From Escherichia coli (GTDB lineage Bacteria; Pseudomonadota; Gammaproteobacteria; Enterobacterales; Enterobacteriaceae): a DNA stretch of 64,000 bases. Positions within the stretch are counted from its first letter, which is position 1. Each line of letters starts with the position of its first letter. The position numbers were made by a program, and so were the translations under genes. The DNA lies in the NCBI RefSeq assembly GCF_022846255.1, contig NZ_AP025682.1. One strand, 5' to 3'. Shown here piece by piece: positions 4,348 to 17,314 of this stretch. The notes under the pieces were generated by a model that ran no database searches, was not told where the DNA came from, and saw only the letters and a program-made list of their open reading frames with translations.

Positions 4348-7206
4348 TTAACCCTCCGCTCCGGTGATAACAGCAATTACCTGAATGTAGGGTTCTTTTT
4401 CAGTCGTCATGGTGTCCTCAATCCATTCAATATAGCTGTCAAAATTGTGTTCTATTTCGCGTTGTCTCTGCTCTTTACGGCTCTGCTTAACTGACAATTG
4501 CTGTTTGTTATCGGCAAAATCCAGCTCAAGTTGGCTCAACTGCCGCCCACGCAAAACGTCCAGCTTTTGCAGATGCTCATTCAGTTGCTGGTTAATGTGC
4601 GTTTCAAACGCATTCCGATCATGGATGAATACCTCCCGGGCATGAGCAATAGCCGCTTCCAGTAAATCCTGCTGGCGCTGGTGATTACGATCTTTACCGC
4701 CGCTGTTAGTCAGCTTGTTACTCAACTGCGGATGACGTTGTAAAAACTCAGCAAATGGCTGACTGCCGATTAGCGATTCACGGTTAAAGCTCACCACTAT
4801 CCACGGGTTAACCATCGGATGTGATTTACGGTTCGGGAATAACCCGGAAAGAATGAAGTGATCTTCATCGGGTTCAAGCAAGTATGGCAGACGGATAACC
4901 GGTGCCTGATGACGACCAAAAGCCGAAGAGATTTTATCGTCCAGCCACTGCACTACCGGGTTGATTTGCCAGAGATACTGCACATCGGGCCAGGCATGTT
5001 GCTCACCGCGAGCGCGTGCAATCGCGTCGGTGATGACGGTTTTATCCTGACTTAAATAGAGCTGCCAGTTCTCCGGCGCGATTTCAGGCGGTAGCTGGTT
5101 GAAGCGGCGGCGTAACTCCTCCGGTGCCACCAGCGACAAGGTATTATCAGGCAAGGTTTCATACTGGATAGTTTGACCACTGGCTTTCAGGTAACCCAAT
5201 GCTCTTTCACAGTACGCCTGTTCGCTGGCAAACAAGCTGGTGTCTGTTTCGGTAACCATTGAGGCATCGCTGGAAACCGCACTGCATATTTCGCCAAACA
5301 GATCATGTTCGGCGCTTTCCGAGACGTTGCTGTTCAGCAGTTGATCAAACAGGCTGGCACCATCATCCTGCATCATGAACTCTGCAACCTGCTCTTCTTC
5401 CTCTTCCTGGGTAAATTTGCCGGTAAACTCCGAACTGTCCCCAATGTTCTTCTGCGCCTGTTCGTCTTTGTTGATCAACACTTCCAGTACGCGCATATCG
5501 CCATTGATCTGTGGTTCGCTGGCCTCGGTAAGCAGATAGCGGATTTGAGGCTGATGTTTTTGCCCATAGCGGTCAATACGCCCGTTACGTTGCTGGAATA
5601 CCATCAACGACCACGGAATATCAAAGTGAATCATTTTGTGGCTAAGGTGATGCAAGTTGATCCCTTCAGATGCCACATCCGAACAAACCAGAAGACGCAA
5701 CGGAGACTGCGTTTTACCAAAGGCTTCTACGGTTTCCATCAACACCGTATCGCCCTGATCGCCGCGCAGCGTGGCGATCTGGTCATCTTTCAATTTCAGA
5801 TCCGCTCGCAGTTGCTGTTCGAGGAACTCCAGCGTTTTAATGCTTTCGGTGAAGATCACCAGGCGATCTTCCGTGTTATTGGCTTTCCAGGCGAGGTCTT
5901 TTCGGATGGTGTCGAGCAGCAACTGGTATTTGCTAAACTGGCTGGCATCAATGTTATTCAGCGCCAACAGCAATGACTCCAGTTCGTTGATCTGGCTCTG
6001 GCTATTATGATCTTTACGGCTCTCAAGACGCTTCAGACGATTCGCCACTACGCTGGCACACGCCATCGGGCTGGAAAATAGCGCTTTTTCGAGGGTTATC
6101 TTGAACAGACGACCTTTGTTAGACTGGGCCTGTTCATCGTCATCATCACGGAACTGACTCTCAACCAGGCGACGGTATGCTTCTTCTTCGGCACCGGATG
6201 CCAGGCGAGTCAGTTTGACAATATTGCGCTCGGGGAACTCGCCAGACATCTGATCTTTCACGTCTTTTTTGAAGCGACGGACAACCAGATTTTTATCGGC
6301 AAAGTCGGCGTATTCATACTCTTTCGGGTTGGCGATCGCCGTCGGGTCAAGCATGTTCATCAGGCTGGCAAAACTTTCAGCTTTACCATCATGCGGCGTT
6401 GCTGAAAGCATAATCAGCGTATCGCTGCGCCCGGCGAGCAGCTTTGCCAGTTTACTGCGTAACGAACTGGTTCCACGTTCTGCGACGTTATGGGCCTCAT
6501 CAATGACAATAATATCCCACCAGGCATTTTCCAGATGGTGACGATATTCAATGTCTTGTTTCAGCGTATCGATGGAGATAATGGTCTTGTCAAAATAGTG
6601 AAACGGGTTGTGGTTGGTAGGGATGCGGTTACGCACCTTTTGTAAACCAGCAGAATCCAGGCGGGTCAATGGGATCGCAAAACGGCTCCAGAACTCCTTC
6701 TGGAATTGTGTCAGCATCGATTTAACCGCCAGAACCAGAATACGTTTTCCGCGCCCACGACGGATCAGTTCCGAAACCAGAATACCGGCTTCCAGCGTTT
6801 TACCCAGACCGACAGCGTCGGCAATGAGTATCCGCTGGCGCGGCTGTGCCAGCGCCATCCGCGTAGGGTCGAGCTGAAACGGCATGGAATCCATCGCCGC
6901 CAGATGACCAAAATGGACTTTACTGTCTGTCGGTACGCGTTGGCGTAACTGACTTTCGATATACAACTGCGCCGCCTGATAATTGGCGGATTCATCTTCC
7001 ACCAAATGCGTTTTTGCGGGATCCAGGATCTCTACTTTTTGTTCCAGTTTGGTCAGAAATAACCCTTCTTTACCGCGCACAAGCTCTGAAATACCATCGC
7101 AGGTCAGCAAATACCCACCATCACCACTGTCATCCGCCCGGCGAATACGCCATTCGGCATCACGAATAACCACCCGCATACCAGGTGCATAATTTTGCTT
7201 ATTCAT
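4348..7206 (-). CDS. SNF2/Rad54-family helicase-like ATPase (BrxHII/DrmD-like)
   Basis: 952-aa ORF; Walker A (ADAVGLGKT), DEAH box (VIDEAH), C-terminal helicase lobe motifs; tightly coupled to downstream methyltransferase. Confidence 0.8.
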   Translation of the reverse strand: MNKQNYAPGMRVVIRDAEWRIRRADDSGDGGYLLTCDGISELVRGKEGLFLTKLEQKVEILDPAKTHLVEDESANYQAAQLYIESQLRQRVPTDSKVHFGHLAAMDSMPFQLDPTRMALAQPRQRILIADAVGLGKTLEAGILVSELIRRGRGKRILVLAVKSMLTQFQKEFWSRFAIPLTRLDSAGLQKVRNRIPTNHNPFHYFDKTIISIDTLKQDIEYRHHLENAWWDIIVIDEAHNVAERGTSSLRSKLAKLLAGRSDTLIMLSATPHDGKAESFASLMNMLDPTAIANPKEYEYADFADKNLVVRRFKKDVKDQMSGEFPERNIVKLTRLASGAEEEAYRRLVESQFRDDDDEQAQSNKGRLFKITLEKALFSSPMACASVVANRLKRLESRKDHNSQSQINELESLLLALNNIDASQFSKYQLLLDTIRKDLAWKANNTEDRLVIFTESIKTLEFLEQQLRADLKLKDDQIATLRGDQGDTVLMETVEAFGKTQSPLRLLVCSDVASEGINLHHLSHKMIHFDIPWSLMVFQQRNGRIDRYGQKHQPQIRYLLTEASEPQINGDMRVLEVLINKDEQAQKNIGDSSEFTGKFTQEEEEEQVAEFMMQDDGASLFDQLLNSNVSESAEHDLFGEICSAVSSDASMVTETDTSLFASEQAYCERALGYLKASGQTIQYETLPDNTLSLVAPEELRRRFNQLPPEIAPENWQLYLSQDKTVITDAIARARGEQHAWPDVQYLWQINPVVQWLDDKISSAFGRHQAPVIRLPYLLEPDEDHFILSGLFPNRKSHPMVNPWIVVSFNRESLIGSQPFAEFLQRHPQLSNKLTNSGGKDRNHQRQQDLLEAAIAHAREVFIHDRNAFETHINQQLNEHLQKLDVLRGRQLSQLELDFADNKQQLSVKQSRKEQRQREIEHNFDSYIEWIEDTMTTEKEPYIQVIAVITGAEG

Positions 7207-7429
7207 CGGTTTTTCTGTCTATTTGGGGCAGTGGCGGTAACGTCATCCTGAAAAATGTGGCGCGGCACACTGCGATAAAAAAGAGGGCCTTAAAGATATC
7301 ATGAAGGCCCCCGGCAAAGTGACAAAATGGGAGGGAATGCGCATAATTTGCGCATGATTTTCAAACAAAAATTATTAAAAAGTGAGCTGGGTCAACTCCC
7401 CTGGAAGATATCCCCAGGGGAGCAATTAT

Positions 7430-10400
7430 TTATCCAGCGATAATATAACTCCTAAGGTCATTACCCGGGGCAACAGCTCGCGCTCGCGTGTTTGCCAGCA
7501 GTTCAACTTGCTGCGGTACTCGCAGGGAAAAATCAAAGAAGGTATCTTCAATACAGCGCCAGTAGCTAAGCCCCATGTCGAGCAGGACATAATGCTGACT
7601 GCCATCGCTGAAGGTGACTGTCAGTTCTCGTCCATGCTCCGTACTCTGGTTATCCCCCGTTAACCAGCTAATTGCTCCCGGCCACGCTGGCCCCAGATAT
7701 CCTTCTTCAAGTAAAGTGGTCACAACCTGCTGACGATCTTCCTCATTAAGCCACGCGTTATAGAGAGCGTCGTGTTGGCGAGAGTTGTAATCCAATTTTT
7801 TGACGCAAACAGTGAGGCTGGCGCGTTCCGCCATTCCCTGTCCAACCAGCTCGGTTAAGATTTCACCTAACAAACGCGCCGTGAATGGGCTATTAAGATA
7901 ACGATCGCTGTACTCAACATGCGTTATCTCTTTGTGGCGGGTAAATGCCTGCTTCCAGCCAGCGTGCTGTTGCGTGACTAACGACCAGAAACGCGAACCA
8001 AAACCTTCCAGCGGCCCGTCCAGTTGCTCGCAGAGGTTGATGCGCACCGCCCCGGTGGGTAAGGCGGGCAGTAAATCTTCTGCACTTAAGGTCTGACCCG
8101 AGAAGGTTTTTCCGGACGTTCCTTTAAGTGTCACTACTGGTGAGGACGCACTTTGTCCCCATAATTCACCAGGTGCAACGGTAGCGCTGTCGTCTGCGGC
8201 CCACTGTTGGCTTTGCCCTTCGCGAGTCACCTGCGCAAGCCAGCGTCCCTTTCCTTGCATGAGTTGCGCAGTGGCAATGGATTTCACTTGTAAGCGTCCT
8301 CCCGGCATCGCCGCCAACGCGGAAAGCTGATGTCTGGAGCTATCTGTTAAGTTTGCCAACGGCGTGGCCACCAGCAACTCAACATGCCCACCGGAGGAGG
8401 CAAACTGGAGCAACTCTTTAAATAATGGCCATTGGGCAAAATCCCACTGTTCCTGCGGCCCCGCAAGAACCAGCGAGCAGGAGTCATAAATCTCGCTGTT
8501 CAGGCATTGCGCAATACGTAAACTCAGCGGGTTAGTTTCAACCCGGCTACCATCGCCGAAGTACTGATATTCTGGCGCGAGGTTAAGTCGCTGCAACCGT
8601 ACATTGGTAAGCAGGGTTAATGCATGGTGACGATCTAATCTGTTGACATAATGCTGACTGTCGTAGCTGAGCAAGCAGTGGTGACAGAATTTATCGCAAC
8701 TGCAATCGAGCAATTTTCTGGCGTAATTAAAGACATCAGCCCAATGGTCGATCAATTGCACTGCATAACCTGCACCACCCGCATTATTGTCGTAAATGAA
8801 GATGGAATATCCGGTATAGCCATTGATATCGCGCGCTTGCTGCGTCGTCACGCCCAGCTCAGTATTTTCGATACCCAATTTATGCGCTAACCCTTCACGC
8901 AAAGCGACCGCAAGGGATCGCGCGGCAACCTCATCACGGATCAACAGGCCATTATCATCATTGAGTTGCAGCTCAACCATATCTGTACGACTGCTATACC
9001 CCAACCAAAGATCTTTATGCACATGACCGTGGCACAATTTATTGCTCCCCTGACGATCGTTACTGCCCCCTCGCAACAGGTAATGCGTATTTTCCCTCTC
9101 TGGGTTCTTAAGATTTTCAGGGGTACGCTGGGGTTGATTTTGAGATTCTGCCCGACCACATGAGAGGCAAATTGCGTAGCCGTGCCCAAATTCCCCTTCA
9201 CTGAAGTGGAACAATTCCCCACTATGGCTAAAACGGTAACGTCCTAACCCAGCATCGGGTAAAGAAACCCACACCGAAGACGGTACAAGAACACGTGGAT
9301 CTTTCCAGGGAAGTTGTGCAGGCATGGATACATCATTATGCGCCTGATAACGGATATCTGTCGCAAAACCAACAGGCTGTAAATAACGCTTCACATCAAG
9401 TTGCTGTATATCCGCTTTGCAGTGACTACATTCGACAGGACGGGTAGTACTGGTTGCCCCCGCACCACATTTACGACAATGCCAGAACCACGGAATATGA
9501 TGATCGCCTGACAGCTCCTGCCCGCTGGCAAGTACCTTGCCAAGCATAATGCCCGAGGAACGATATACTTTTCCGCCCAATACCACATCTGCACCTGGAG
9601 CATACTCGCGTAATGCTGTAGGCAAATCACGGCTGGGCAATTTTTCAATACGACGAGAAAAGCTTTCTCCCCCTTCATTAGGGTCAGCCTGAGTAGCTTT
9701 TATTGCGCGACGTTTTTCCAGCTCATCTGCCGTCAGATAATTGAAATTGACGACGCCAACCGGGAAACCATGCCCCGGCAGGAACGCTTCACTAATGAGT
9801 TTAGAAAACAGATATGCACCGCGATAATCACGAAGCTGATAAGCGATGGCTTTACCTGCTGGCGTTTCTTCCCACGCGCTGTTATCCGCCTTCAACGCTT
9901 CGATATTTTCCAACAGTATCGCAAGTTGGCTTCTCCAGCGGATATCAACCTGCTGCATCATTGCTTGTGTGCGGGTCAAGAGCTGGGTTGCCGTCAATGA
10001 CATCAGGACGGTTCCCTGAGTAAGGCGTTTAAGTTTATCCGCCAGCTGATCGGCCTGGTTATTTAACCAATGGAGAAAACGAAGACACTGGCTCTCATCA
10101 CCTTCAAAGAACCATTTGCAACTCAGTTTTGTCGCATCAGGAACTTCAGCTCGTAAAAACAGACCTAAAACCAGGGCATTAACATGTCGTTGAACAATAC
10201 TGCTGCTCCCAAAACGAACCCGTGGCGCACTGGCAGTAGTGTTGAACGCCCAGAGGGGGGCTTTGAATACCTCCATTCCATGCGCCGTGTTTTTACATAA
10301 CGTAATGGCAGCAGATGCACTCTCTCCACGTCGACCCGCGCGGCCTGCACGCTGCAAATAATTTGCCGGAGCTGGAGGAACGTTGTTCATTGCCACCAAA

Positions 10401-13400
10401 CTCATACCACCAATGTCCACCCCCATCTCCATGGTCGTGGAGCAGTTCAGCACATTAACTTTGCCTGACTTAAATTGTTTTTCATTAAACTGGTTCTGCT
10501 CAGGCGTTCTCTGCGCAGAGTGTTCCTCCAGACGATACCAGCTATCTTTCAGGGCCAGTCGGTCGCTGCGAGTAGACCATAATCCTTCCTCGCGGGCATG
10601 TTGAATCAGCGCATTACTTTCCAGCCACTCCAGACGTTCTTCTCGGGCGATTTCTCCACCACCAGACAAACGCCAGTGACGTACAGGAAGCTCAGGCATT
10701 TCAATCAACACTGCTTTTTCAGGTGCAATTTCTTTGCTACCCGGCAAATACGGAGAGTATCCCAGTAACGTGACGTCTAACGCACGTCGAGTATAGGGGC
10801 AACGCCACACTTGCTTTGGACTGTAAAATTCAGCTTGTTGTTTAATATCCAGCTGATAACCCGACTCAAACTGACGTAAGCAGGGTCGAATTGCATCCCA
10901 GACCTCAATCATTAAGTGGTTAACTAACGATTTCCAGTGAGCCTGCTCAGGTTGTATTGCCGGAAAGACTGCAATTAATAGCTTAATGACCCGGTTATAA
11001 TGGCGATCGCGTATTTGTGGCCAAAGTTGATCACGTTTCTGCCCTTTGTTTTTTTTATCTGGACCCTGGAGCATTTTTACCGGGAAACGAGCCCCCATCC
11101 AGCGAGGGTATTGCTCGTTTTCGTAAAAAACGGCACTGTTTTCACGTATAAAGAAATCAAGAGTAATCTTCAATAAATTACGCCATTCCGCTAATTGCTT
11201 ATCGGGATCGGGTAATAATGTCTTCCAGTCCTGCGGGCAGGTTGTAACTTTATCAATAAATGGATAGTGAATGGCTACCAGACCCAGACTTTCGAGGGTC
11301 CAGGCATTTTTAGGGCGGCGACCAAACTCACTGTATAAACAAAAATCTGCAAACTGTTGTTTAGTAAGATCAAGCCCAGACAATTCTTTAAAACTGCCTC
11401 TCATTCTATCGGCAAGGTCCACACTGCCAACCAGCTGTTCAGACAGTGTTTGCCATGACATGGTTTTCTTCTGCTGATTGCCAGAGTTAGCCTGGAGTAT
11501 TTGCATCGCTTCAGCATGATCCGGGCTTAAGGAACTCACCATCGGCTCGATAATTTTAAGTGCCTGAATGTCCGCCGGGCTAAGCTCTTCATTAGCAACC
11601 ATCGCTTTTTTCAGCGCGTCAATAGAGTTTTTTAAAGGAAGGATAGAAAACTGGGTAATAAAACTCTCTAACAATGCGCAGTGTGCCGGGCTGAGCTTTG
11701 CTGATGGCTCATTAATATTGGCCAACTCCTGGTAACAAAGAGCTCGCAACGTCGCTTTATCGGCATCCTGCTGTAAGCGGGCAGAAATGCGGGCAGTGCC
11801 CTGACGTGAATCCGTAAAGGTGAGCAGACGTCGACCATTAAACGGTCCTAACTGCTCTTCTCTTGTCTGCGGTAATGGTGAAAACTCCAGCAGAGTAGGA
11901 ATAATTTCATTTAAAAAAAAGGGCGCGCCAAGTCGAAGCGGACGGAATAAAGGATTATTTTTTCGTTGGGTGTCACCACAGCAAACACAAGCAAAGGAAT
12001 TATTACGTCCCTCACCTCGAGATTCCGGTCTTAACAGGTTTATTTCATAGTGCTTTTGCGCTTCACTATCAATTTTCCCCGCCGTCGTTTCTTCCAGAGA
12101 AATGATATATTTTTCACCATCGATCGCAATCAGACGATCAAATTGAGAGTTATTGTCTAATTCGTCGTTGTCTTCATCTTCAGAATAAACATCTACATCA
12201 AGAGCAAATTCATCCACTTCGGCAGCGGCGGGTTGCGCTACCAACCAGTTCGTTCCATCACCGCGCACCTCCTCTTTGGCAGACAAATAAGCTGAACCAC
12301 ACCCGGAGCAACGTAAAACTTCAAATACCGGCGCACCACAGTCACAATATTGGCGCTGCTCAAACCATACCTGACCAAATGGCCAGTCACTCTGATTTAA
12401 TTCATGCGCTTTATGTGAGCATTGTTTGTTTGAACATGCCCATAGACCCGCCAGTGTTCTGATAAACCCATGCATACGTAATGGCGTAAAAGCCAGTTCA
12501 CCTTCTCGCGATCTCGCCATTAGGTCGAGGAGTTGCAGTAACTCACGGTGATTAATATCTGGCCAGGTTCTTCTGGCAACATTGAGCAACTCACTCAAAC
12601 GTACTGCCTGCCGTCCGGGATGAGTTAACGCCTGACGCAATTGCTGGGCCACACGGTAATGACAAAGCTGTTGGTAAAGATCCTGAGGGCTCAAAGATTT
12701 AAGAGAAGTTAAAGATGTGGGATATTCATGACGAATCAGCGACTCCGATACCCGCGGTATTTGTCGATAGCCGCGAACCACTTTGACATCACGTTCTGTA
12801 ACGCCCGCAAGATCAGCGACAAATTTAGCAAGCTCCTTATTACCTTCAGGAGAGTCTTCACCAATAGTGGCAGAGGTCGCGATAATCTGCACAGGTTTAT
12901 CTGTGCCAGGTCCAACATTGAAAGCCTGCATAACACGACGTAAAAGCAGCGCTAACTCAGCAGCCTGAGAACCAATATAACTATGGGCTTCATCCAGGAC
13001 GATATACTTTAACATCCCCTGAGACTTTTCGATGATTGGGGCATCTTTACGACGAATCAGCATATATTCCAGCATGGTGGTATTCGTCACCATGATGGAA
13101 GGTGGTGCTTCGTAAATGGCTTCCCGACTCAAAGCTTGTTCAGGTACTTTCAACTGATCTTCCTGAACTTCGTATTTGGTATGCCGGGTTTCGCCATTAT
13201 ATAGCGCGAAGCGTATTTTCCCCTTAAATCCGCGCGTCCATTCGCGAAGCCGCTCCTGTTGGCTGTTAATTAATGCATTTAACGGATACAAGAAAATAGC
13301 TTGTGTCCCTGTTAGTGACTGACGGGTCGATTTTTGCTGACGAATAAGATCTTCCAGAACCGGTACCATAAAGCATTCTGTTTTCCCGGATCCCGTACCG

Positions 13401-13753
13401 CTGCTCACTAACAAGGATTTTTTGTCTTCCAGAATCGTTCGCCACGCCGTAAGTTGATGACGAAATGGCACCGGCGCTTTGCTCAATGCATCAACCAGCG
13501 GGCTGGAAATTAGCTTGTCCCGCAAATCCTCCATTGTTTCATCCGCAGGCATCCAGCCGAACGTGCTTTCGAATACCGGGTCTGCAAGCAGTGACCCCTC
13601 CTGACCGGGAGGCTGGAAATATTGTGATTCCAGATAATGAGTCAACGACTTGCTCCGCAATGCCAACTGACTTACCACCGACCTCACCGCGCGCTGATGA
13701 AGCTGATTTAGAAGTGGCGCATAATGCAGTTGCTGAACGTCCATCAATGACAT
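7430..13753 (-). CDS. druE: Giant DEAH-box helicase with multiple Cys4 zinc-ribbon clusters (DUF1998-like); DruE-like
   Basis: 2107-aa ORF; Walker A SSGTGSGKTE, DEAH box (VLDEAH), helicase motif VI QRAGRAGRRG about 1000 residues downstream; CxxC...CxxC clusters (CSNKQC...CDCG...CSGCG; HCRKCG...CSHCK; CLSCG; CSCDKFCHHC). Size and domain content match the hallmark Druantia helicase; DrmA/DrmB-type fusion not excluded. Confidence 0.55.
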   Translation of the reverse strand: MSLMDVQQLHYAPLLNQLHQRAVRSVVSQLALRSKSLTHYLESQYFQPPGQEGSLLADPVFESTFGWMPADETMEDLRDKLISSPLVDALSKAPVPFRHQLTAWRTILEDKKSLLVSSGTGSGKTECFMVPVLEDLIRQQKSTRQSLTGTQAIFLYPLNALINSQQERLREWTRGFKGKIRFALYNGETRHTKYEVQEDQLKVPEQALSREAIYEAPPSIMVTNTTMLEYMLIRRKDAPIIEKSQGMLKYIVLDEAHSYIGSQAAELALLLRRVMQAFNVGPGTDKPVQIIATSATIGEDSPEGNKELAKFVADLAGVTERDVKVVRGYRQIPRVSESLIRHEYPTSLTSLKSLSPQDLYQQLCHYRVAQQLRQALTHPGRQAVRLSELLNVARRTWPDINHRELLQLLDLMARSREGELAFTPLRMHGFIRTLAGLWACSNKQCSHKAHELNQSDWPFGQVWFEQRQYCDCGAPVFEVLRCSGCGSAYLSAKEEVRGDGTNWLVAQPAAAEVDEFALDVDVYSEDEDNDELDNNSQFDRLIAIDGEKYIISLEETTAGKIDSEAQKHYEINLLRPESRGEGRNNSFACVCCGDTQRKNNPLFRPLRLGAPFFLNEIIPTLLEFSPLPQTREEQLGPFNGRRLLTFTDSRQGTARISARLQQDADKATLRALCYQELANINEPSAKLSPAHCALLESFITQFSILPLKNSIDALKKAMVANEELSPADIQALKIIEPMVSSLSPDHAEAMQILQANSGNQQKKTMSWQTLSEQLVGSVDLADRMRGSFKELSGLDLTKQQFADFCLYSEFGRRPKNAWTLESLGLVAIHYPFIDKVTTCPQDWKTLLPDPDKQLAEWRNLLKITLDFFIRENSAVFYENEQYPRWMGARFPVKMLQGPDKKNKGQKRDQLWPQIRDRHYNRVIKLLIAVFPAIQPEQAHWKSLVNHLMIEVWDAIRPCLRQFESGYQLDIKQQAEFYSPKQVWRCPYTRRALDVTLLGYSPYLPGSKEIAPEKAVLIEMPELPVRHWRLSGGGEIAREERLEWLESNALIQHAREEGLWSTRSDRLALKDSWYRLEEHSAQRTPEQNQFNEKQFKSGKVNVLNCSTTMEMGVDIGGMSLVAMNNVPPAPANYLQRAGRAGRRGESASAAITLCKNTAHGMEVFKAPLWAFNTTASAPRVRFGSSSIVQRHVNALVLGLFLRAEVPDATKLSCKWFFEGDESQCLRFLHWLNNQADQLADKLKRLTQGTVLMSLTATQLLTRTQAMMQQVDIRWRSQLAILLENIEALKADNSAWEETPAGKAIAYQLRDYRGAYLFSKLISEAFLPGHGFPVGVVNFNYLTADELEKRRAIKATQADPNEGGESFSRRIEKLPSRDLPTALREYAPGADVVLGGKVYRSSGIMLGKVLASGQELSGDHHIPWFWHCRKCGAGATSTTRPVECSHCKADIQQLDVKRYLQPVGFATDIRYQAHNDVSMPAQLPWKDPRVLVPSSVWVSLPDAGLGRYRFSHSGELFHFSEGEFGHGYAICLSCGRAESQNQPQRTPENLKNPERENTHYLLRGGSNDRQGSNKLCHGHVHKDLWLGYSSRTDMVELQLNDDNGLLIRDEVAARSLAVALREGLAHKLGIENTELGVTTQQARDINGYTGYSIFIYDNNAGGAGYAVQLIDHWADVFNYARKLLDCSCDKFCHHCLLSYDSQHYVNRLDRHHALTLLTNVRLQRLNLAPEYQYFGDGSRVETNPLSLRIAQCLNSEIYDSCSLVLAGPQEQWDFAQWPLFKELLQFASSGGHVELLVATPLANLTDSSRHQLSALAAMPGGRLQVKSIATAQLMQGKGRWLAQVTREGQSQQWAADDSATVAPGELWGQSASSPVVTLKGTSGKTFSGQTLSAEDLLPALPTGAVRINLCEQLDGPLEGFGSRFWSLVTQQHAGWKQAFTRHKEITHVEYSDRYLNSPFTARLLGEILTELVGQGMAERASLTVCVKKLDYNSRQHDALYNAWLNEEDRQQVVTTLLEEGYLGPAWPGAISWLTGDNQSTEHGRELTVTFSDGSQHYVLLDMGLSYWRCIEDTFFDFSLRVPQQVELLANTRARAVAPGNDLRSYIIAG

Positions 13754-16700: not shown

Positions 16701-17103
16701 CACAAGCCAGTGTATGCAGATAACCCGAAGCTTGCCCCAGGTTTCTTATCTTTCTTTTCCAGTAGCGAATGCCATCATTAACCAGCTTCTGTTGATGAAC
16801 ATACGGAACTTTCCAGTCAATAGAATCTAAAATTGTGTCCCATTTAGGGTGTCCGACCGTATGAGTCCGGCGGATAAACTCTGCGGCATATATGCTAAAT
16901 AGAACATCGCTATAGGAAATGAATATCGTTCTTGGATAACTACGGGGGGCATATGTACGCAGTAGTTCTGCCAAACTTTCGTACTCTGTATCAGTACAAC
17001 GGTAAGCATATAACGCCCGTCCATCAGCTCCGGATAATGAACGGCGACTAAAAAACATGTTAAGCCATTGCAAAAGTGGGTTAACTGGAGTTTTCACAAG
17101 CAA
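13744..17103 (-). CDS. druH: 1119-aa protein without recognisable motifs, translationally coupled to the giant helicase (DruH-like position)
   Basis: Long uninterrupted ORF; stop overlaps helicase start by 10 nt; no catalytic motif recognised by eye; position and size fit the DruH partner of type III Druantia, but the assignment is by context only. Confidence 0.45.
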   Translation of the reverse strand: MLVKTPVNPLLQWLNMFFSRRSLSGADGRALYAYRCTDTEYESLAELLRTYAPRSYPRTIFISYSDVLFSIYAAEFIRRTHTVGHPKWDTILDSIDWKVPYVHQQKLVNDGIRYWKRKIRNLGQASGYLHTLACEGGLPIRMIENESGYLITYFRRIYQALRGQASQYPAAKIAQELGDTIPVTMQNELVYEIAGEFCETLCRLLSEHPPQSSDPVSALRKLSPDWHLQLPLVLPEANAAEIVRRLLSQSSEIRSASSLQVERIWVDVDDSWYCDARFRFPAIMRTEQLTSLFECNIQPEQTRLIISGKWRNGGARLAMLSRYEQQDWRVELLPIAMQKLSGADAMAEISLSLHEGPILLGHTIPKGGYELTEELPWVFEAMNESESQLKLVGMGSVSSRLNALFISLPKNSHLDISGEGEFDIPRLLKNSERSLTKISGVFSVVLHDGAVCTIRTQQLYDSAIEYYIKSTEVELVKSDYPVHRAWPKIGWKKDLQYGIVPEKELFWRSIRSGNNAWYSVASEMPKGQIEVRRIVNDEVLFSGKVVVLPTDFDINIIPESAQQGIIMLSGITDTRIDKYSNNEKVTLKSDYSQNECAIYYNSSEMLENTVDLRVSWKDGSNLKLLLPKPVSGGRFVTHDGSVHFDGVASIAHLHGIDAELLTISCAGRGYLNIELLDENPVAEKFRYLHADLPLLSGCNDKLKQISLYENYNLLNAMLACAWNSNSTLCVDFYSDRFGKDKATLSIKRYDGSFIEHDQGLLVDIKNSVVFPANRIDELVVDAISLKDPGLHISLLKKDEFAYDLSALNVQDSPWLIVGKLDGTARIAPVIKWGLPVLQTNDLLLNALCEADSEQRKKYFNELIFEIDNNPLQNYCCLLTEYIKKYKMNNGLSLLDLDLFRGISSNYRVVVQLLISSCLSGDSDTIYDIQEELPFSWGWIPVSIWKDVFQKCWAYLEKQINDKTLALHILQPFIAFMNHRAHIDRRLAPIANMLLTYGELLPAGCNVLPTVSREQFNEAKQMLLRNPDSFGRISIFPKELWSSAITPELKSVFNKLWIEDKYHSRLEKRFNLMLVAALLTQKDNNLIHQLSALFEFHYQQAPQQLGVIYQYYFEQAGVCH

Positions 17104-17314
17104 CCTGCCTTCCTTTGATACAATTCGTAACAGGTTACTATCATCATAAAAAAGCTCAACCCGATGAACTCGCTAAAAATGAGACAAATCATTTATATCT
17201 CGAAAAAACTTGTTACAATCATGAGCGCTACACCGAACTTAACCATATAAATTATGTGTGTTTTGTTTATTTTTTAAACAATTACAACTATCCATTATTT
17301 ACACAGGTATCAAA

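What the first reader, a model, noticed from the sequence alone, without database searches (positions are those of the whole stretch)
7207..7429. Hairpin-rich spacer separating the DruE-like gene from the SNF2-MTase pair
This 223-bp intergenic region contains a strong palindrome centred on GATATC immediately after the helicase stop (approx 7396-7425, arms ctcccctgg / ccaggggag), a second stem gggcctt...aaggccc (approx 7288-7315) and a short palindrome gcgcataatttgcgc (approx 7341-7355). Together these look like a terminator followed by a separate regulated promoter, implying the SNF2-MTase pair is transcribed independently of druHE.
Basis: seen in the sequence. Interest (0 to 1): 0.35.

Follow-up and report, generated by a model that had tools for sequence, protein, structure and literature searches.

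The report
Terminator-promoter junction between defence operons
The 223-bp gap is the ordinary but well-built boundary between two known E. coli anti-phage operons (Druantia III and ARMADA II): a conserved RNA hairpin ends the upstream operon, and a conserved promoter plus leader starts the downstream one.

Summary
All three palindromes are present, and fold better than shuffled sequence. The genes lie on the minus strand: druH-druE (Druantia III), then the spacer, then armA-armB (ARMADA II). This is the published Zorya II / Druantia III / ARMADA II island.

Across 36 armA-linked spacer variants, only the first hairpin (H1, 7395-7423) is conserved as a structure. It uses at least three stem sequences, with compensatory and G·U-only changes. 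H2 (7283-7312) and H3 (7337-7355) are stable mainly in the E. coli lineage.

The spacer travels with armA whatever lies upstream: druE, an unannotated gene pair, mobile-element genes, or a divergent gene. A published ARMADA clone starts exactly at the druE stop and is active.

In E. coli, H2 plus its U6 tract is the only canonical intrinsic terminator. It wraps the promoter, so it should stop only transcripts arriving from upstream.

Independent transcription of armABCD is therefore well supported. "Regulated" is untested, and no transcript data could be obtained. This is an ordinary kind of element, of modest interest.

The parts
7430..7432 (-). druE (Druantia type III) stop codon TAA
   Evidence: ORF 7430-13753 on the minus strand. 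PADLOC DruE3, 2179 bits. The RefSeq annotation agrees.
7395..7423 (-). H1: G+C-rich hairpin starting 6 nt after the stop. Core arms are 7396-7404 and 7414-7422. It has no U-tract: the tail is UUGACCCA.
   Evidence: -21.2 kcal/mol. It is conserved as a structure with compensatory changes: 96.8% of cells paired, 17 cells changed on both sides, covariation 0.349 against 0.185 in shuffles (0 of 500 reach it), and slid controls are much lower. All one-sided changes give U·G in the sense strand, and several variants are stable only as sense RNA.
7390..7395 (-). TTGACC directly abutting H1. Candidate -35 of an upstream promoter, P1.
   Evidence: GTTGAC is present in the E. coli, Siccibacter and Serratia types. 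PWM scan: TTGACC-15-TAATTT scores 9.8, and TTGACC-16-TATCGT scores 10.8-11.4 in relatives. It is missing in L097, L115 and L119, which still keep the armA-proximal part.
7369..7374 (-). TAATTT: candidate -10 of P1, at a sub-optimal 15-nt spacing
   Evidence: There is no matching -10 in the Serratia type.
7337..7355 (-). H3: perfect 7-5-7 palindrome ATGCGCA-N5-TGCGCAT
   Evidence: It is perfect only in the E. coli type (-8.6 kcal/mol). In the Siccibacter type it is weaker and kept only through G·U pairs in sense RNA (-5.5 to -3.6, against 0 to -3.2 antisense). It is absent in the Serratia and Aeromonadaceae types.
7320..7325 (-). TTGTCA: -35-like hexamer, 16 nt upstream of CATGAT (7303-7298)
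   Evidence: 9 of 12 matches, score 8.3. It is present only where H2 is present, in the E. coli and L101 types.
7283..7312 (-). H2: hairpin GGGGGCCUU-N12-AAGGCCCUC, immediately followed by U6. Together these form the only canonical intrinsic-terminator signature in the spacer. Its loop holds the -10 and its 3' arm holds the predicted start site.
   Evidence: -15.1 kcal/mol. It is stable only in the E. coli type (-13.7) and the L101 type (-14.6, where a G·U pair becomes A-U). It is weakened in the plasmid/Klebsiella variant (-8.0) and absent elsewhere (0 to -2.7).
7293..7301 (-). P2: extended -10 promoter motif TGaTATCTT (TG 7301-7300; -10 hexamer 7298-7293)
   Evidence: T-15, G-14, T-12, A-11 and T-7 are invariant in all 36 armA-linked variants, while only 48 of 223 spacer columns are invariant. 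All variation falls at -16 (A/G), -13, -10, -9 and -8. The motif is also present in Aeromonas veronii L013 as TGgTACCCT. TG has become TC in the 7 E. coli remnants that have lost armA.
7277..7282 (-). T6 tract: U-tail of H2 for upstream-initiated RNA, and part of the invariant initial transcribed region for P2 RNA
   Evidence: Invariant block TTTTTATCG. It is preceded by a stable hairpin only in the E. coli and L101 types.
7268..7304 (-). Most conserved block of the spacer, TCATGATATCTTTAAGGCCCTCTTTTTTATCGCAGTG. The predicted +1 is about 7286-7291.
   Evidence: It is unique in the window and is found only upstream of armA among the fetched loci.
7228..7273 (-). 5'UTR stem-loop closed by GCAGUG / CACUGC, with a variable interior
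   Evidence: The closing helix is kept in all lineages, with one compensatory G-C to A-U change and one U-A to U·G change. It folds at -10 to -22 kcal/mol in every variant.
7204..7222 (-). Conserved A-rich translation-initiation region ACAGACAGAAAAACCG plus the armA ATG (7206-7204)
   Evidence: The N-terminus MNKQNYAPGM is conserved in homologues from residue 1.
7319..7347 (+). Plus-strand promoter-like site GTGACA-17-CATAAT, pointing into the 3' end of druE. Function doubtful.
   Evidence: 10 of 12 matches. The two hexamers are not conserved in the Siccibacter and Serratia types, as read from the alignments.

Best explanation
The spacer is the boundary between two separately transcribed anti-phage operons, druHE (Druantia III) and armABCD (ARMADA II). 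As a unit it belongs to the ARMADA side.

Reading 5' to 3' on the minus strand:
1. H1 is an RNA hairpin formed at the 3' end of whatever operon lies upstream. It acts as a 3'-end-protecting hairpin, or as a weak, non-canonical terminator.
2. P2, an extended -10 sigma-70 promoter (CRTGnTAYYYT, 7301-7293), starts armABCD transcription at about 7286-7291.
3. The resulting mRNA begins with an invariant C/U-rich stretch, then a conserved stem-loop, then an A-rich ribosome-binding region. The leader is about 80-85 nt long.
4. In the E. coli lineage only, sequence on either side of P2 has become complementary, forming H2. Together with the U6 tract this makes a canonical intrinsic terminator.

The -10 sits in the H2 loop and the start site sits in its 3' arm. 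Transcripts arriving from druHE, or from a possible upstream promoter P1, contain the whole hairpin and should be terminated. P2 transcripts lack the 5' arm and should continue into armA.

What is shown: the structures, their conservation pattern, the modular linkage to armA, and the sufficiency of the spacer in a published clone.

What is inferred: the promoter assignment, the start site, termination at H1 or H2, and the insulating logic.
For: Gene identities: DruH3, DruE3, DrmD-like ArmA and DrmMI-like/type IIG-like ArmB. The island is described as Zorya II / Druantia III / ARMADA II, with druHE and armABCD treated as separate operons.

H1 is conserved as a sense-strand RNA structure.

P2: the five critical positions of TGnTAnnnT are invariant in 36 variants, against 21.5% invariant columns overall. 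Variation falls only at non-critical positions, and the motif has decayed where armA is lost.

The 5'UTR stem-loop is conserved.

The spacer travels with armA:
- An identical H1-to-ATG sequence lies behind druE in Siccibacter and behind an unrelated 743-aa gene in Citrobacter, with the homology breakpoint just 5' of H1.
- armA lies next to a divergently oriented gene in L097 and next to an IS element in L115. Both keep the P2 segment but not the H1/P1 segment.

Published evidence: pARMADA was amplified with primer FN1701, whose 3' part ATAATTGCTCCCCTGGGGATATC matches window 7431-7409. It was cloned 'under its native promoters', antisense to lacZ-alpha in pBeloBAC11, and it protects BL21-AI against phages.

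H2 plus U6: 9-bp stem, -15 kcal/mol, 7 U in the 8 nt after the stem. H1 has 2 U in 8.
Against: - No transcription start site, 3'-end or RNA-seq data could be obtained. The held Cappable-seq tables for EDL933 are truncated before this locus.
- TGnTAnnnT alone is a short motif, expected about 0.2 times per strand in 223 nt. The case for it rests on its conservation pattern.
- The predicted +1 falls on pyrimidines (CCC), which is unusual.
- The simple promoter scan did not call this -10. It called the overlapping TTGTCA-16-CATGAT instead.
- The invariance of the 20 nt downstream of the -10 is not explained by a plain promoter.
- H2 is weakened by a mismatch in the plasmid-borne variant, so the insulating terminator is dispensable.
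- Vector read-through in pARMADA cannot be formally excluded.
- The Vibrio homologues do not show the same motif.
Confidence: 0.6

Rival explanations
1. The main promoter is P1, formed by the TTGACC abutting H1 plus TAATTT/TATCGT. Its RNA starts near 7360 with H3 as a 5' stabilising hairpin. In E. coli, H2 plus U6 then acts as a leader attenuator. It either releases an ~85-nt small RNA (H3, a CCCUCCC stretch, then the H2 terminator) or allows conditional read-through into armA.
For: - P1 gives the best PWM scores in most lineages (9.8-11.4).
- GTTGAC is kept next to H1 in three lineages.
- H3 variants stay paired only via G·U in the sense RNA.
- The segment 7270-7360 gives a weak sRNA-like Rfam hit (suhB/mmgR, 23.4 bits, E = 0.023).
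- CUCCC (7333-7329) could pair with GGGGG (7312-7308) as an anti-terminator. This was read from the sequence and not tested.
Against: - The Rfam hit is far below the gathering score of 41.
- The Serratia type has no usable -10 behind TTGACG.
- L097, L115 and L119 lack the P1 segment yet keep armA and the P2 segment.
- H2 and H3 are absent from most lineages, so attenuation cannot be the ancestral mechanism.
- The spacing in E. coli is 15 nt.
Confidence: 0.2
2. There is no independent promoter. druHE-armABCD is one long transcript, and the hairpins only serve mRNA processing or stability within it.
For: All six genes are co-directional and the systems act synergistically. H1 lacks a U-tract. 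The published Druantia deletion keeps the druH promoter (primer TG180 maps to 17059-17108), so that experiment does not exclude read-through expression.
Against: - pARMADA, which starts at the druE stop, is active.
- ARMADA occurs behind a divergent gene, behind mobile-element genes, and alone in Salmonella.
- H2 plus U6 is a canonical terminator in this very sequence.
Confidence: 0.07
3. The DNA palindromes are operators for dimeric DNA-binding regulators that control ARMADA. This applies to H3 (7-5-7) and H2 (a 13-nt imperfect inverted repeat across the -10), with structure at the DNA level rather than the RNA level.
For: H3 and H2 are symmetric in DNA and overlap or flank promoter elements. 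The invariant block downstream of the -10 could be a protein-binding site.
Against: - Neither palindrome is conserved outside the E. coli lineage.
- Changes in H1 and H3 preserve G·U pairing, which matters only in RNA.
- No regulator gene lies in the island next to them.
- The invariant block is not itself palindromic, as read from the sequence.
Confidence: 0.08
4. The hairpins are chance features of an A+T-rich spacer and have no function.
For: H2, H3 and the two GATATC sites are lineage-specific. GATATC is common in this window, at 35 sites.
Against: Shuffle z-scores are -2.3 to -4.3. H1 shows covariation. The spacer length of exactly 223 nt is kept from E. coli to Yersinia and Serratia, where ArmA is 87-88% identical.
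Confidence: 0.05

Closest known systems
Rho-independent (intrinsic) terminators of Enterobacteria
   Same: H2 plus TTTTTT has the defining anatomy: a G+C-rich stem of 9 bp, about -15 kcal/mol, directly followed by a U-run. H1 shares the stable G+C-rich stem placed just after a stop codon.
   Different: H1 has no U-tract, and H2 has a large 12-nt loop. H2 exists only in one lineage. Unusually, it encloses the downstream promoter's -10 and start site, so it can act only on transcripts that begin upstream.
Extended -10 (TGn) sigma-70 promoters, e.g. galP1 (established knowledge of E. coli promoters)
   Same: A TG lies one base upstream of a TAnnnT hexamer, with a purine at -16. No good -35 sits at the proper spacing. 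The conservation pattern matches the positions known to contact sigma.
   Different: The start site is not mapped, and the predicted start falls on C residues. The 20 nt that follow are invariant, which plain promoters do not require.
Zorya II / Druantia III / ARMADA II defence island (OI-172, SpLE6) of E. coli (10.1101/2025.09.22.677730; PMC12458937)
   Same: This is the same locus. The window matches the ATCC 8739 deletion primers with 0 mismatches. The spacer is 99-100% identical in 505 genomes.
   Different: Those papers treat druHE and armABCD as operons and clone ARMADA with 'native promoters'. The passages I read do not describe the elements inside the spacer.
UTP/CTP-sensitive promoters with U-tracts in the initial transcribed region (pyrBI, codBA, upp, pyrC; recalled from memory)
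   Same: There is a run of six T a few bases after the predicted start. The start falls on pyrimidines, and a nearby 5' stem-loop follows.
   Different: This is a resemblance only. The U-tract would begin at about +5, further from +1 than in the known cases. No link to nucleotide metabolism is known, and nothing was tested.
5'-terminal stem-loops that stabilise mRNA (e.g. the ompA 5'UTR; recalled from memory)
   Same: A conserved stem-loop lies near the 5' end of the predicted armA mRNA, and H3 lies near the 5' end of a P1 transcript.
   Different: About 13-18 unpaired nucleotides would precede the stem-loop, whereas stabilising hairpins normally sit within a few nucleotides of the 5' end.

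Membership tests
Intrinsic (Rho-independent) terminator | Stable G+C-rich stem-loop in the transcribed strand | tested here: met
   H1 folds at -21.2 kcal/mol and H2 at -15.1 kcal/mol as sense RNA.
Intrinsic (Rho-independent) terminator | U-rich tract immediately 3' of the stem | tested here: inconclusive
   H2 meets this feature with UUUUUUAU. H1 does not: its tail is UUGACCCA. The terminator scan missed H2 because its loop exceeds 8 nt, and it flagged only a weak 6-bp hairpin at 7398-7384.
Intrinsic (Rho-independent) terminator | Hairpin conserved among homologous loci | tested here: inconclusive
   H1 is conserved with covariation. H2 is found only in the E. coli and L101 types.
Intrinsic (Rho-independent) terminator | RNA 3' ends at the U-tract in vivo or in vitro | not testable with these tools
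   No Term-seq or RNA-seq data were accessible.
Sigma-70 extended -10 promoter | TG at -15/-14, one base upstream of the -10 hexamer | tested here: met
   TG at 7301-7300 is invariant in 36 armA-linked variants. It has become TC only in remnants lacking armA.
Sigma-70 extended -10 promoter | -10 hexamer with T-12, A-11 and T-7 | tested here: met
   TATCTT, TACTCT, TATTCT and TACCCT occur in different lineages. The three key positions are invariant.
Sigma-70 extended -10 promoter | Mapped transcription start 6-9 nt downstream, and activity of the isolated fragment | not testable with these tools
   There is only indirect support: the spacer-plus-armABCD clone is active. The TSS tables are truncated.
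Any curated RNA family (Rfam 15) | Covariance-model score at or above the family gathering threshold | tested here: not met
   The best hit is suhB/mmgR at 23.4 bits, against a threshold of 41.
Druantia type III / ARMADA type II flanking genes | DruH plus DruE upstream, and SNF2 (ArmA) plus PglX-like MTase (ArmB) downstream | tested here: met
   PADLOC: DruH3 2538 bits, DruE3 2179 bits, DrmD-like 333 bits, and REase_MTase_IIG/DrmMI 939 and 190 bits. The literature names these genes. ArmC and ArmD lie outside the window.
Dispersed repeat (REP/BIME/ERIC-type) | Many copies per genome | tested here: not met
   Median of 1 place per genome, and at most 2.
Integron attC site | Imperfect palindrome bounded by the RYYYAAC ... 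GTTRRRY core sites | tested here: not met
   H1 is followed by GTTGACC, where the third R position is C. No inverse core lies on the 5' side. This was read directly from the sequence.

The most novel reading that the evidence does not exclude
The invariant start region (CCCUCUUUUUUAUC) plus the adjacent conserved stem-loop may not be a passive leader. It could be a sensor that tunes ARMADA expression. One possible mechanism is pyrimidine-nucleotide-dependent start-site choice or reiterative transcription at the U-tract, as in pyrBI, codBA or upp. Another is binding of an unidentified protein or RNA. Either would couple the level of this defence system to the metabolic state of an infected cell. 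In E. coli, the promoter-wrapping terminator H2 would add strict insulation from druHE.
Probability: 0.08. Interest if true: 0.55.

Novelty: new member of a known kind. Interest (0 to 1): 0.25.

Why it matters
- It pins down where ARMADA II's native expression signals most probably lie: about 125 nt upstream of armA, of which roughly 95 nt are needed for the extended -10 and leader. This is useful for cloning, for reporter work, and for designing non-polar deletions.
- It matters for reading the published Druantia/ARMADA synergy experiments. The Druantia deletion used there keeps both the druH promoter and the whole spacer.
- It shows that ARMADA II moves as a self-contained cassette that brings its own upstream hairpin, promoter and leader. 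This explains how it can sit behind Druantia III, behind an undescribed gene pair, or behind mobile-element genes.
- The biology itself, a terminator/promoter junction, is ordinary.

Tried and rejected
- **Rfam search of 6900-7800:** nothing reached threshold.
- **Dispersed-repeat hypothesis:** rejected, because the spacer is single-copy per genome.
- **GATATC as a functional centre:** rejected. It is absent from both loops in all other lineages and is frequent in the window.
- **H2 plus U-tract as the ancestral terminator:** rejected. No stable hairpin precedes the invariant T-tract outside the E. coli and L101 types.
- **Alternative sigma factors and binding sites, checked by eye:** sigma-54 (GG-N10-GC), sigma-28 (TAAAGTTT-N11-GCCGATAA), sigma-32, IHF and DnaA-box consensus sequences were compared with the conserved block. 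None fitted in spacing or sequence. These were inspections only, using consensus sequences recalled from memory.
- **Integron attC:** the core sites do not fit.
- **Small ORFs:**
  - The 18-aa ORF at 7355-7299 loses its start codon in the Mangrovibacter and 1218KP types.
  - The 19-aa ORF at 7302-7243 keeps its length in three sub-lineages. In the Serratia and Aeromonadaceae types a 1-nt indel shifts its frame while the nucleotides stay conserved. Conservation is therefore at the nucleotide level (read).
- **Plus-strand 18-aa ORF from ATG 7301:** its start is not conserved (CACG in Serratia).
- **Experimental start sites:**
  - The EDL933 Cappable-seq supplements are truncated before 5.42 Mb.
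  - The Sakai dRNA-seq paper has no held supplements.
  - Literature searches for locus tags, or for small RNAs in OI-172/SpLE6, gave nothing on this spacer.
- **Published Druantia deletion as evidence for an independent promoter:** rejected as uninformative, because the druH promoter is retained.

Full report
**What is there.**

The finding covers exactly the 223 bp between two minus-strand ORFs, 13753-7430 (2107 aa) and 7206-4348 (952 aa). PADLOC and Pfam identify the upstream genes as DruH3 (17103-13744) and DruE3. The downstream genes are a DrmD-like SNF2 helicase and a DrmMI-like/type IIG-like methyltransferase that runs off the window start.

RefSeq genomes show the full layout. zorA2-zorB2-zorE is divergent from druH-druE, which is followed by four co-directional genes (EDL933). 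The literature names this the Zorya II / Druantia III / ARMADA II island (OI-172, SpLE6), with armABCD as the downstream operon. The window matches the E. coli ATCC 8739 deletion primers of PMC12458937 without mismatch. The spacer occurs once per genome in 534 of 5426 complete E. coli genomes and on 17 plasmids.

**Check of the observation.**

All three palindromes exist, with small coordinate corrections:
- H1: 7396-7404 / 7414-7422, extendable to 7423-7395.
- H2: 7285-7291 / 7304-7310, which forms 9 pairs across 7283-7312 as RNA.
- H3: 7337-7343 / 7349-7355.

As sense (minus-strand) RNA they fold at -21.2, -15.1 and -9.2 kcal/mol, with z-scores of -3.3, -2.3 and -4.3 against dinucleotide shuffles. 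The whole spacer has z = -3.9. Rfam has no family for any of them.

**Comparative evidence.**

A protein-guided scan of species genomes returned armA homologues with their upstream DNA. A DNA-pattern scan of metagenomes added more. Together they give 40 distinct spacer variants, 36 of them attached to an intact armA.

The gap is exactly 223 nt from E. coli to Siccibacter, Serratia, Yersinia and an Enterobacter MAG. Four results follow.

*(i) H1 is a conserved structure.*
- Three different stem sequences occur: CUCCCCUGG, CUCCCCCAC and CCCCCUGCC.
- A fourth, unrelated hairpin sits at the same place in an Aeromonadaceae contig.
- All form 9-10 perfect pairs right after the upstream stop codon.
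- On 18 distinct rows, 96.8% of cells pair and 17 cells carry changes on both sides. The covariation score is 0.349 against 0.185 ± 0.021 in shuffles (0 of 500 reach it), and sliding the partner collapses the signal.
- Every one-sided change is C to U, giving U·G in the sense strand. Some variants are stable only as sense RNA, for example L124 at -9.9 against -1.5 kcal/mol.
- H1 therefore acts as RNA in the direction of the genes.

*(ii) H2 and H3 are not general.*
- H2 is stable only in the E. coli type and one mosaic lineage (L101/L110, where a G·U pair becomes A-U).
- It is weakened by a mismatch in the plasmid/Klebsiella variant and absent elsewhere.
- H3 is perfect only in the E. coli type, survives weakly through G·U pairs in the Siccibacter type, and is absent in the Serratia and Aeromonadaceae types.
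- The two GATATC sites are likewise E. coli-specific.

*(iii) The best-conserved sequence is not a hairpin.*
- It is the block TCATGATATCTTTAAGGCCCTCTTTTTTATCGCAGTG (7304-7268).
- Within it, T-15, G-14, T-12, A-11 and T-7 of an extended -10 promoter (TGnTAnnnT) are invariant in all 36 variants, while only 21.5% of spacer columns are invariant. Every substitution falls at -16 (A/G, a purine as in the known TRTG motif), -13, -10, -9 or -8.
- Aeromonas veronii has TGgTACCCT at the corresponding place.
- In seven E. coli genomes an IS element has removed armA, and there the motif has decayed to TCtTATCTT.
- Downstream lie an invariant CCC(TC)TTTTTTATCG and a stem-loop closed by GCAGUG/CACUGC, which is kept in all lineages with one compensatory pair. 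A conserved A-rich region then precedes the ATG.

*(iv) The spacer belongs to armA, not to druE.*
- Siccibacter (druE upstream) and Citrobacter (an unrelated 743-aa gene upstream) have virtually identical sequence from 7 nt before H1 to the ATG. The breakpoint is right at the upstream stop codon.
- In A. veronii the upstream genes are a primase-helicase and a small-terminase-like gene.
- In contig L115 an IS3-type transposase replaces the H1-proximal part.
- In contig L097 the neighbour is a divergently transcribed dynamin-like pair, so armA must start its own transcript there.
- All of these keep the P2 block.
- An older paper also notes armABCD alone in Salmonella.

**Published functional evidence.**

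PMC12458937 cloned ARMADA II 'under its native promoters'. Primer FN1701 shows that the insert begins with ATAATTGCTCCCCTGGGGATATC, the last base of the druE stop codon followed by H1. The Gibson overlaps place the insert antisense to lacZ-alpha of pBeloBAC11 (the orientation is deduced from the M13 primer sequences, which is my inference). That single-copy clone protects BL21-AI. The 223 bp are therefore sufficient for armABCD expression, unless an unrecognised vector promoter reads in.

The chromosomal Druantia deletion in the same paper keeps the first codons of druH and everything upstream. It says nothing about promoter independence.

**How it most likely works.**

H1 marks the 3' end of the upstream operon. 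Lacking a U-tract (UUGACCCA), it is at best a weak terminator. More probably it is a 3'-end-protecting hairpin.

Transcription of armABCD starts from P2, either from TGaTATCTT or, in E. coli, from the overlapping TTGTCA-16-CATGAT that the scan found. Either gives a start at about 7286-7291 and a leader of about 80-85 nt.

In the E. coli lineage, the sequences flanking P2 have become complementary. The 5' arm (7312-7304) lies upstream of the TG, the -10 lies in the loop, and the 3' arm (7291-7283) covers the start site and is followed by U6. This is the only canonical intrinsic terminator in the spacer, with 7 U in the 8 nt after a -15 kcal/mol stem. It can form only in RNA that began upstream. 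It should therefore block read-through from druHE, or from the possible promoter P1, while leaving P2 transcripts untouched. These steps are inferred from anatomy and none is shown experimentally.

**Rivals.**
- *P1 as the main promoter.* P1 (the TTGACC abutting H1, then TAATTT/TATCGT) scores well. It could be a second promoter whose RNA begins with H3 and, in E. coli, ends at H2 as a short RNA or attenuated leader. Against it being the main promoter, it lacks a -10 in the Serratia type and is dispensable in L097, L115 and L119.
- *A single long operon* is unlikely, given the clone and the varied contexts.
- *DNA-level operators* are disfavoured by the G·U-type substitutions and the lack of conservation.
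- *Chance* is excluded for H1 but not fully for H2 and H3.

**What remains unexplained.**
- Why the 20 nt after the -10 are invariant, and why the predicted start falls on C residues.
- A pyrimidine-sensing start region (reiterative transcription at the U-tract) or a binding site is conceivable. I rate it about 8% likely.

**Verdict.**
It is wrong or unproven in details: which hairpin terminates, where the promoter lies, and whether it is 'regulated'.
- The element is an ordinary operon junction in an already published island, with a tidy lineage-specific terminator-around-promoter arrangement.
- Novelty: a new member of a known kind. Interest: modest.

Noticed in passing
L017:776-7749 (Citrobacter sp. 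FP75); also L008, L009, L094, L095, L105, L116. Remnant in E. coli at L002:12237-19174.: A two-gene pair (about 1581 aa plus 743 aa) occupies exactly the position of Druantia III upstream of the ARMADA II spacer. It has no hit in PADLOC, Pfam, NCBIfam or PDB sequences. It is a candidate undescribed defence module.
   Followed up: partly
L015:2334-7861 (Vibrio sp. 05-20-BW147): Another unannotated pair lies upstream of armA: 1182 aa with only a sub-threshold DEAD-box hit, plus 660 aa.
   Followed up: partly
L097:2604-6741: In this metagenome contig, armA is preceded by a divergently oriented pair of weakly dynamin/GTPase-like proteins (sub-threshold Pfam hits). The H1/P1 part of the spacer is missing, but the P2 block is intact.
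   Followed up: partly
L101 and L110 (metagenome contigs): These carry a mosaic spacer. H1 is of the Siccibacter type, the middle part (including H3, TTGTCA and H2) is of the E. coli type, and the 5'UTR is of the E. wuhouensis type. This indicates recombination inside the 223 bp.
   Followed up: partly
L119 (QZMH01005423.1): The last ~160 nt of the spacer plus armA are joined to a Gram-positive-looking promoter/RBS (TTGATT..TATACTATAAT..AAGGAGAGAG..ATG). This may be a chimeric assembly or a construct.
   Followed up: no
window 7319-7347 (+), with H1 at 7396-7422: A plus-strand promoter-like site, GTGACA-17-CATAAT (10 of 12 matches), points into the druE 3' end. H1 plus CAAUUAUUUAU lie downstream of it, so it could give an ~80-nt antisense RNA. 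The hexamers are not conserved in other lineages.
   Followed up: partly
window 7355-7299 (-) and 7302-7243 (-): There are two small ORFs in the spacer: MRKLCAFPPILSLCRGPS and MISLRPSFLSQCAAPHFSG. The second keeps its 19-codon length in the Siccibacter and E. wuhouensis types but is frame-shifted in the Serratia and Aeromonadaceae types. Neither is preceded by a conserved Shine-Dalgarno sequence.
   Followed up: partly
whole window: GATATC occurs 35 times, against 15 ± 4 in dinucleotide-preserving shuffles. The cause was not examined.
   Followed up: no
window 7400-7404 and 7414-7418: In the E. coli type only, the H1 stem contains two Dcm sites (CCTGG and CCAGG). This was read from the sequence, and its significance is unknown.
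   Followed up: no
window 17104-17257: The divergent zorA2 / druH intergenic region (about 150 bp) must hold the promoters of both Zorya II and Druantia III. The published Druantia deletion leaves it intact.
   Followed up: no
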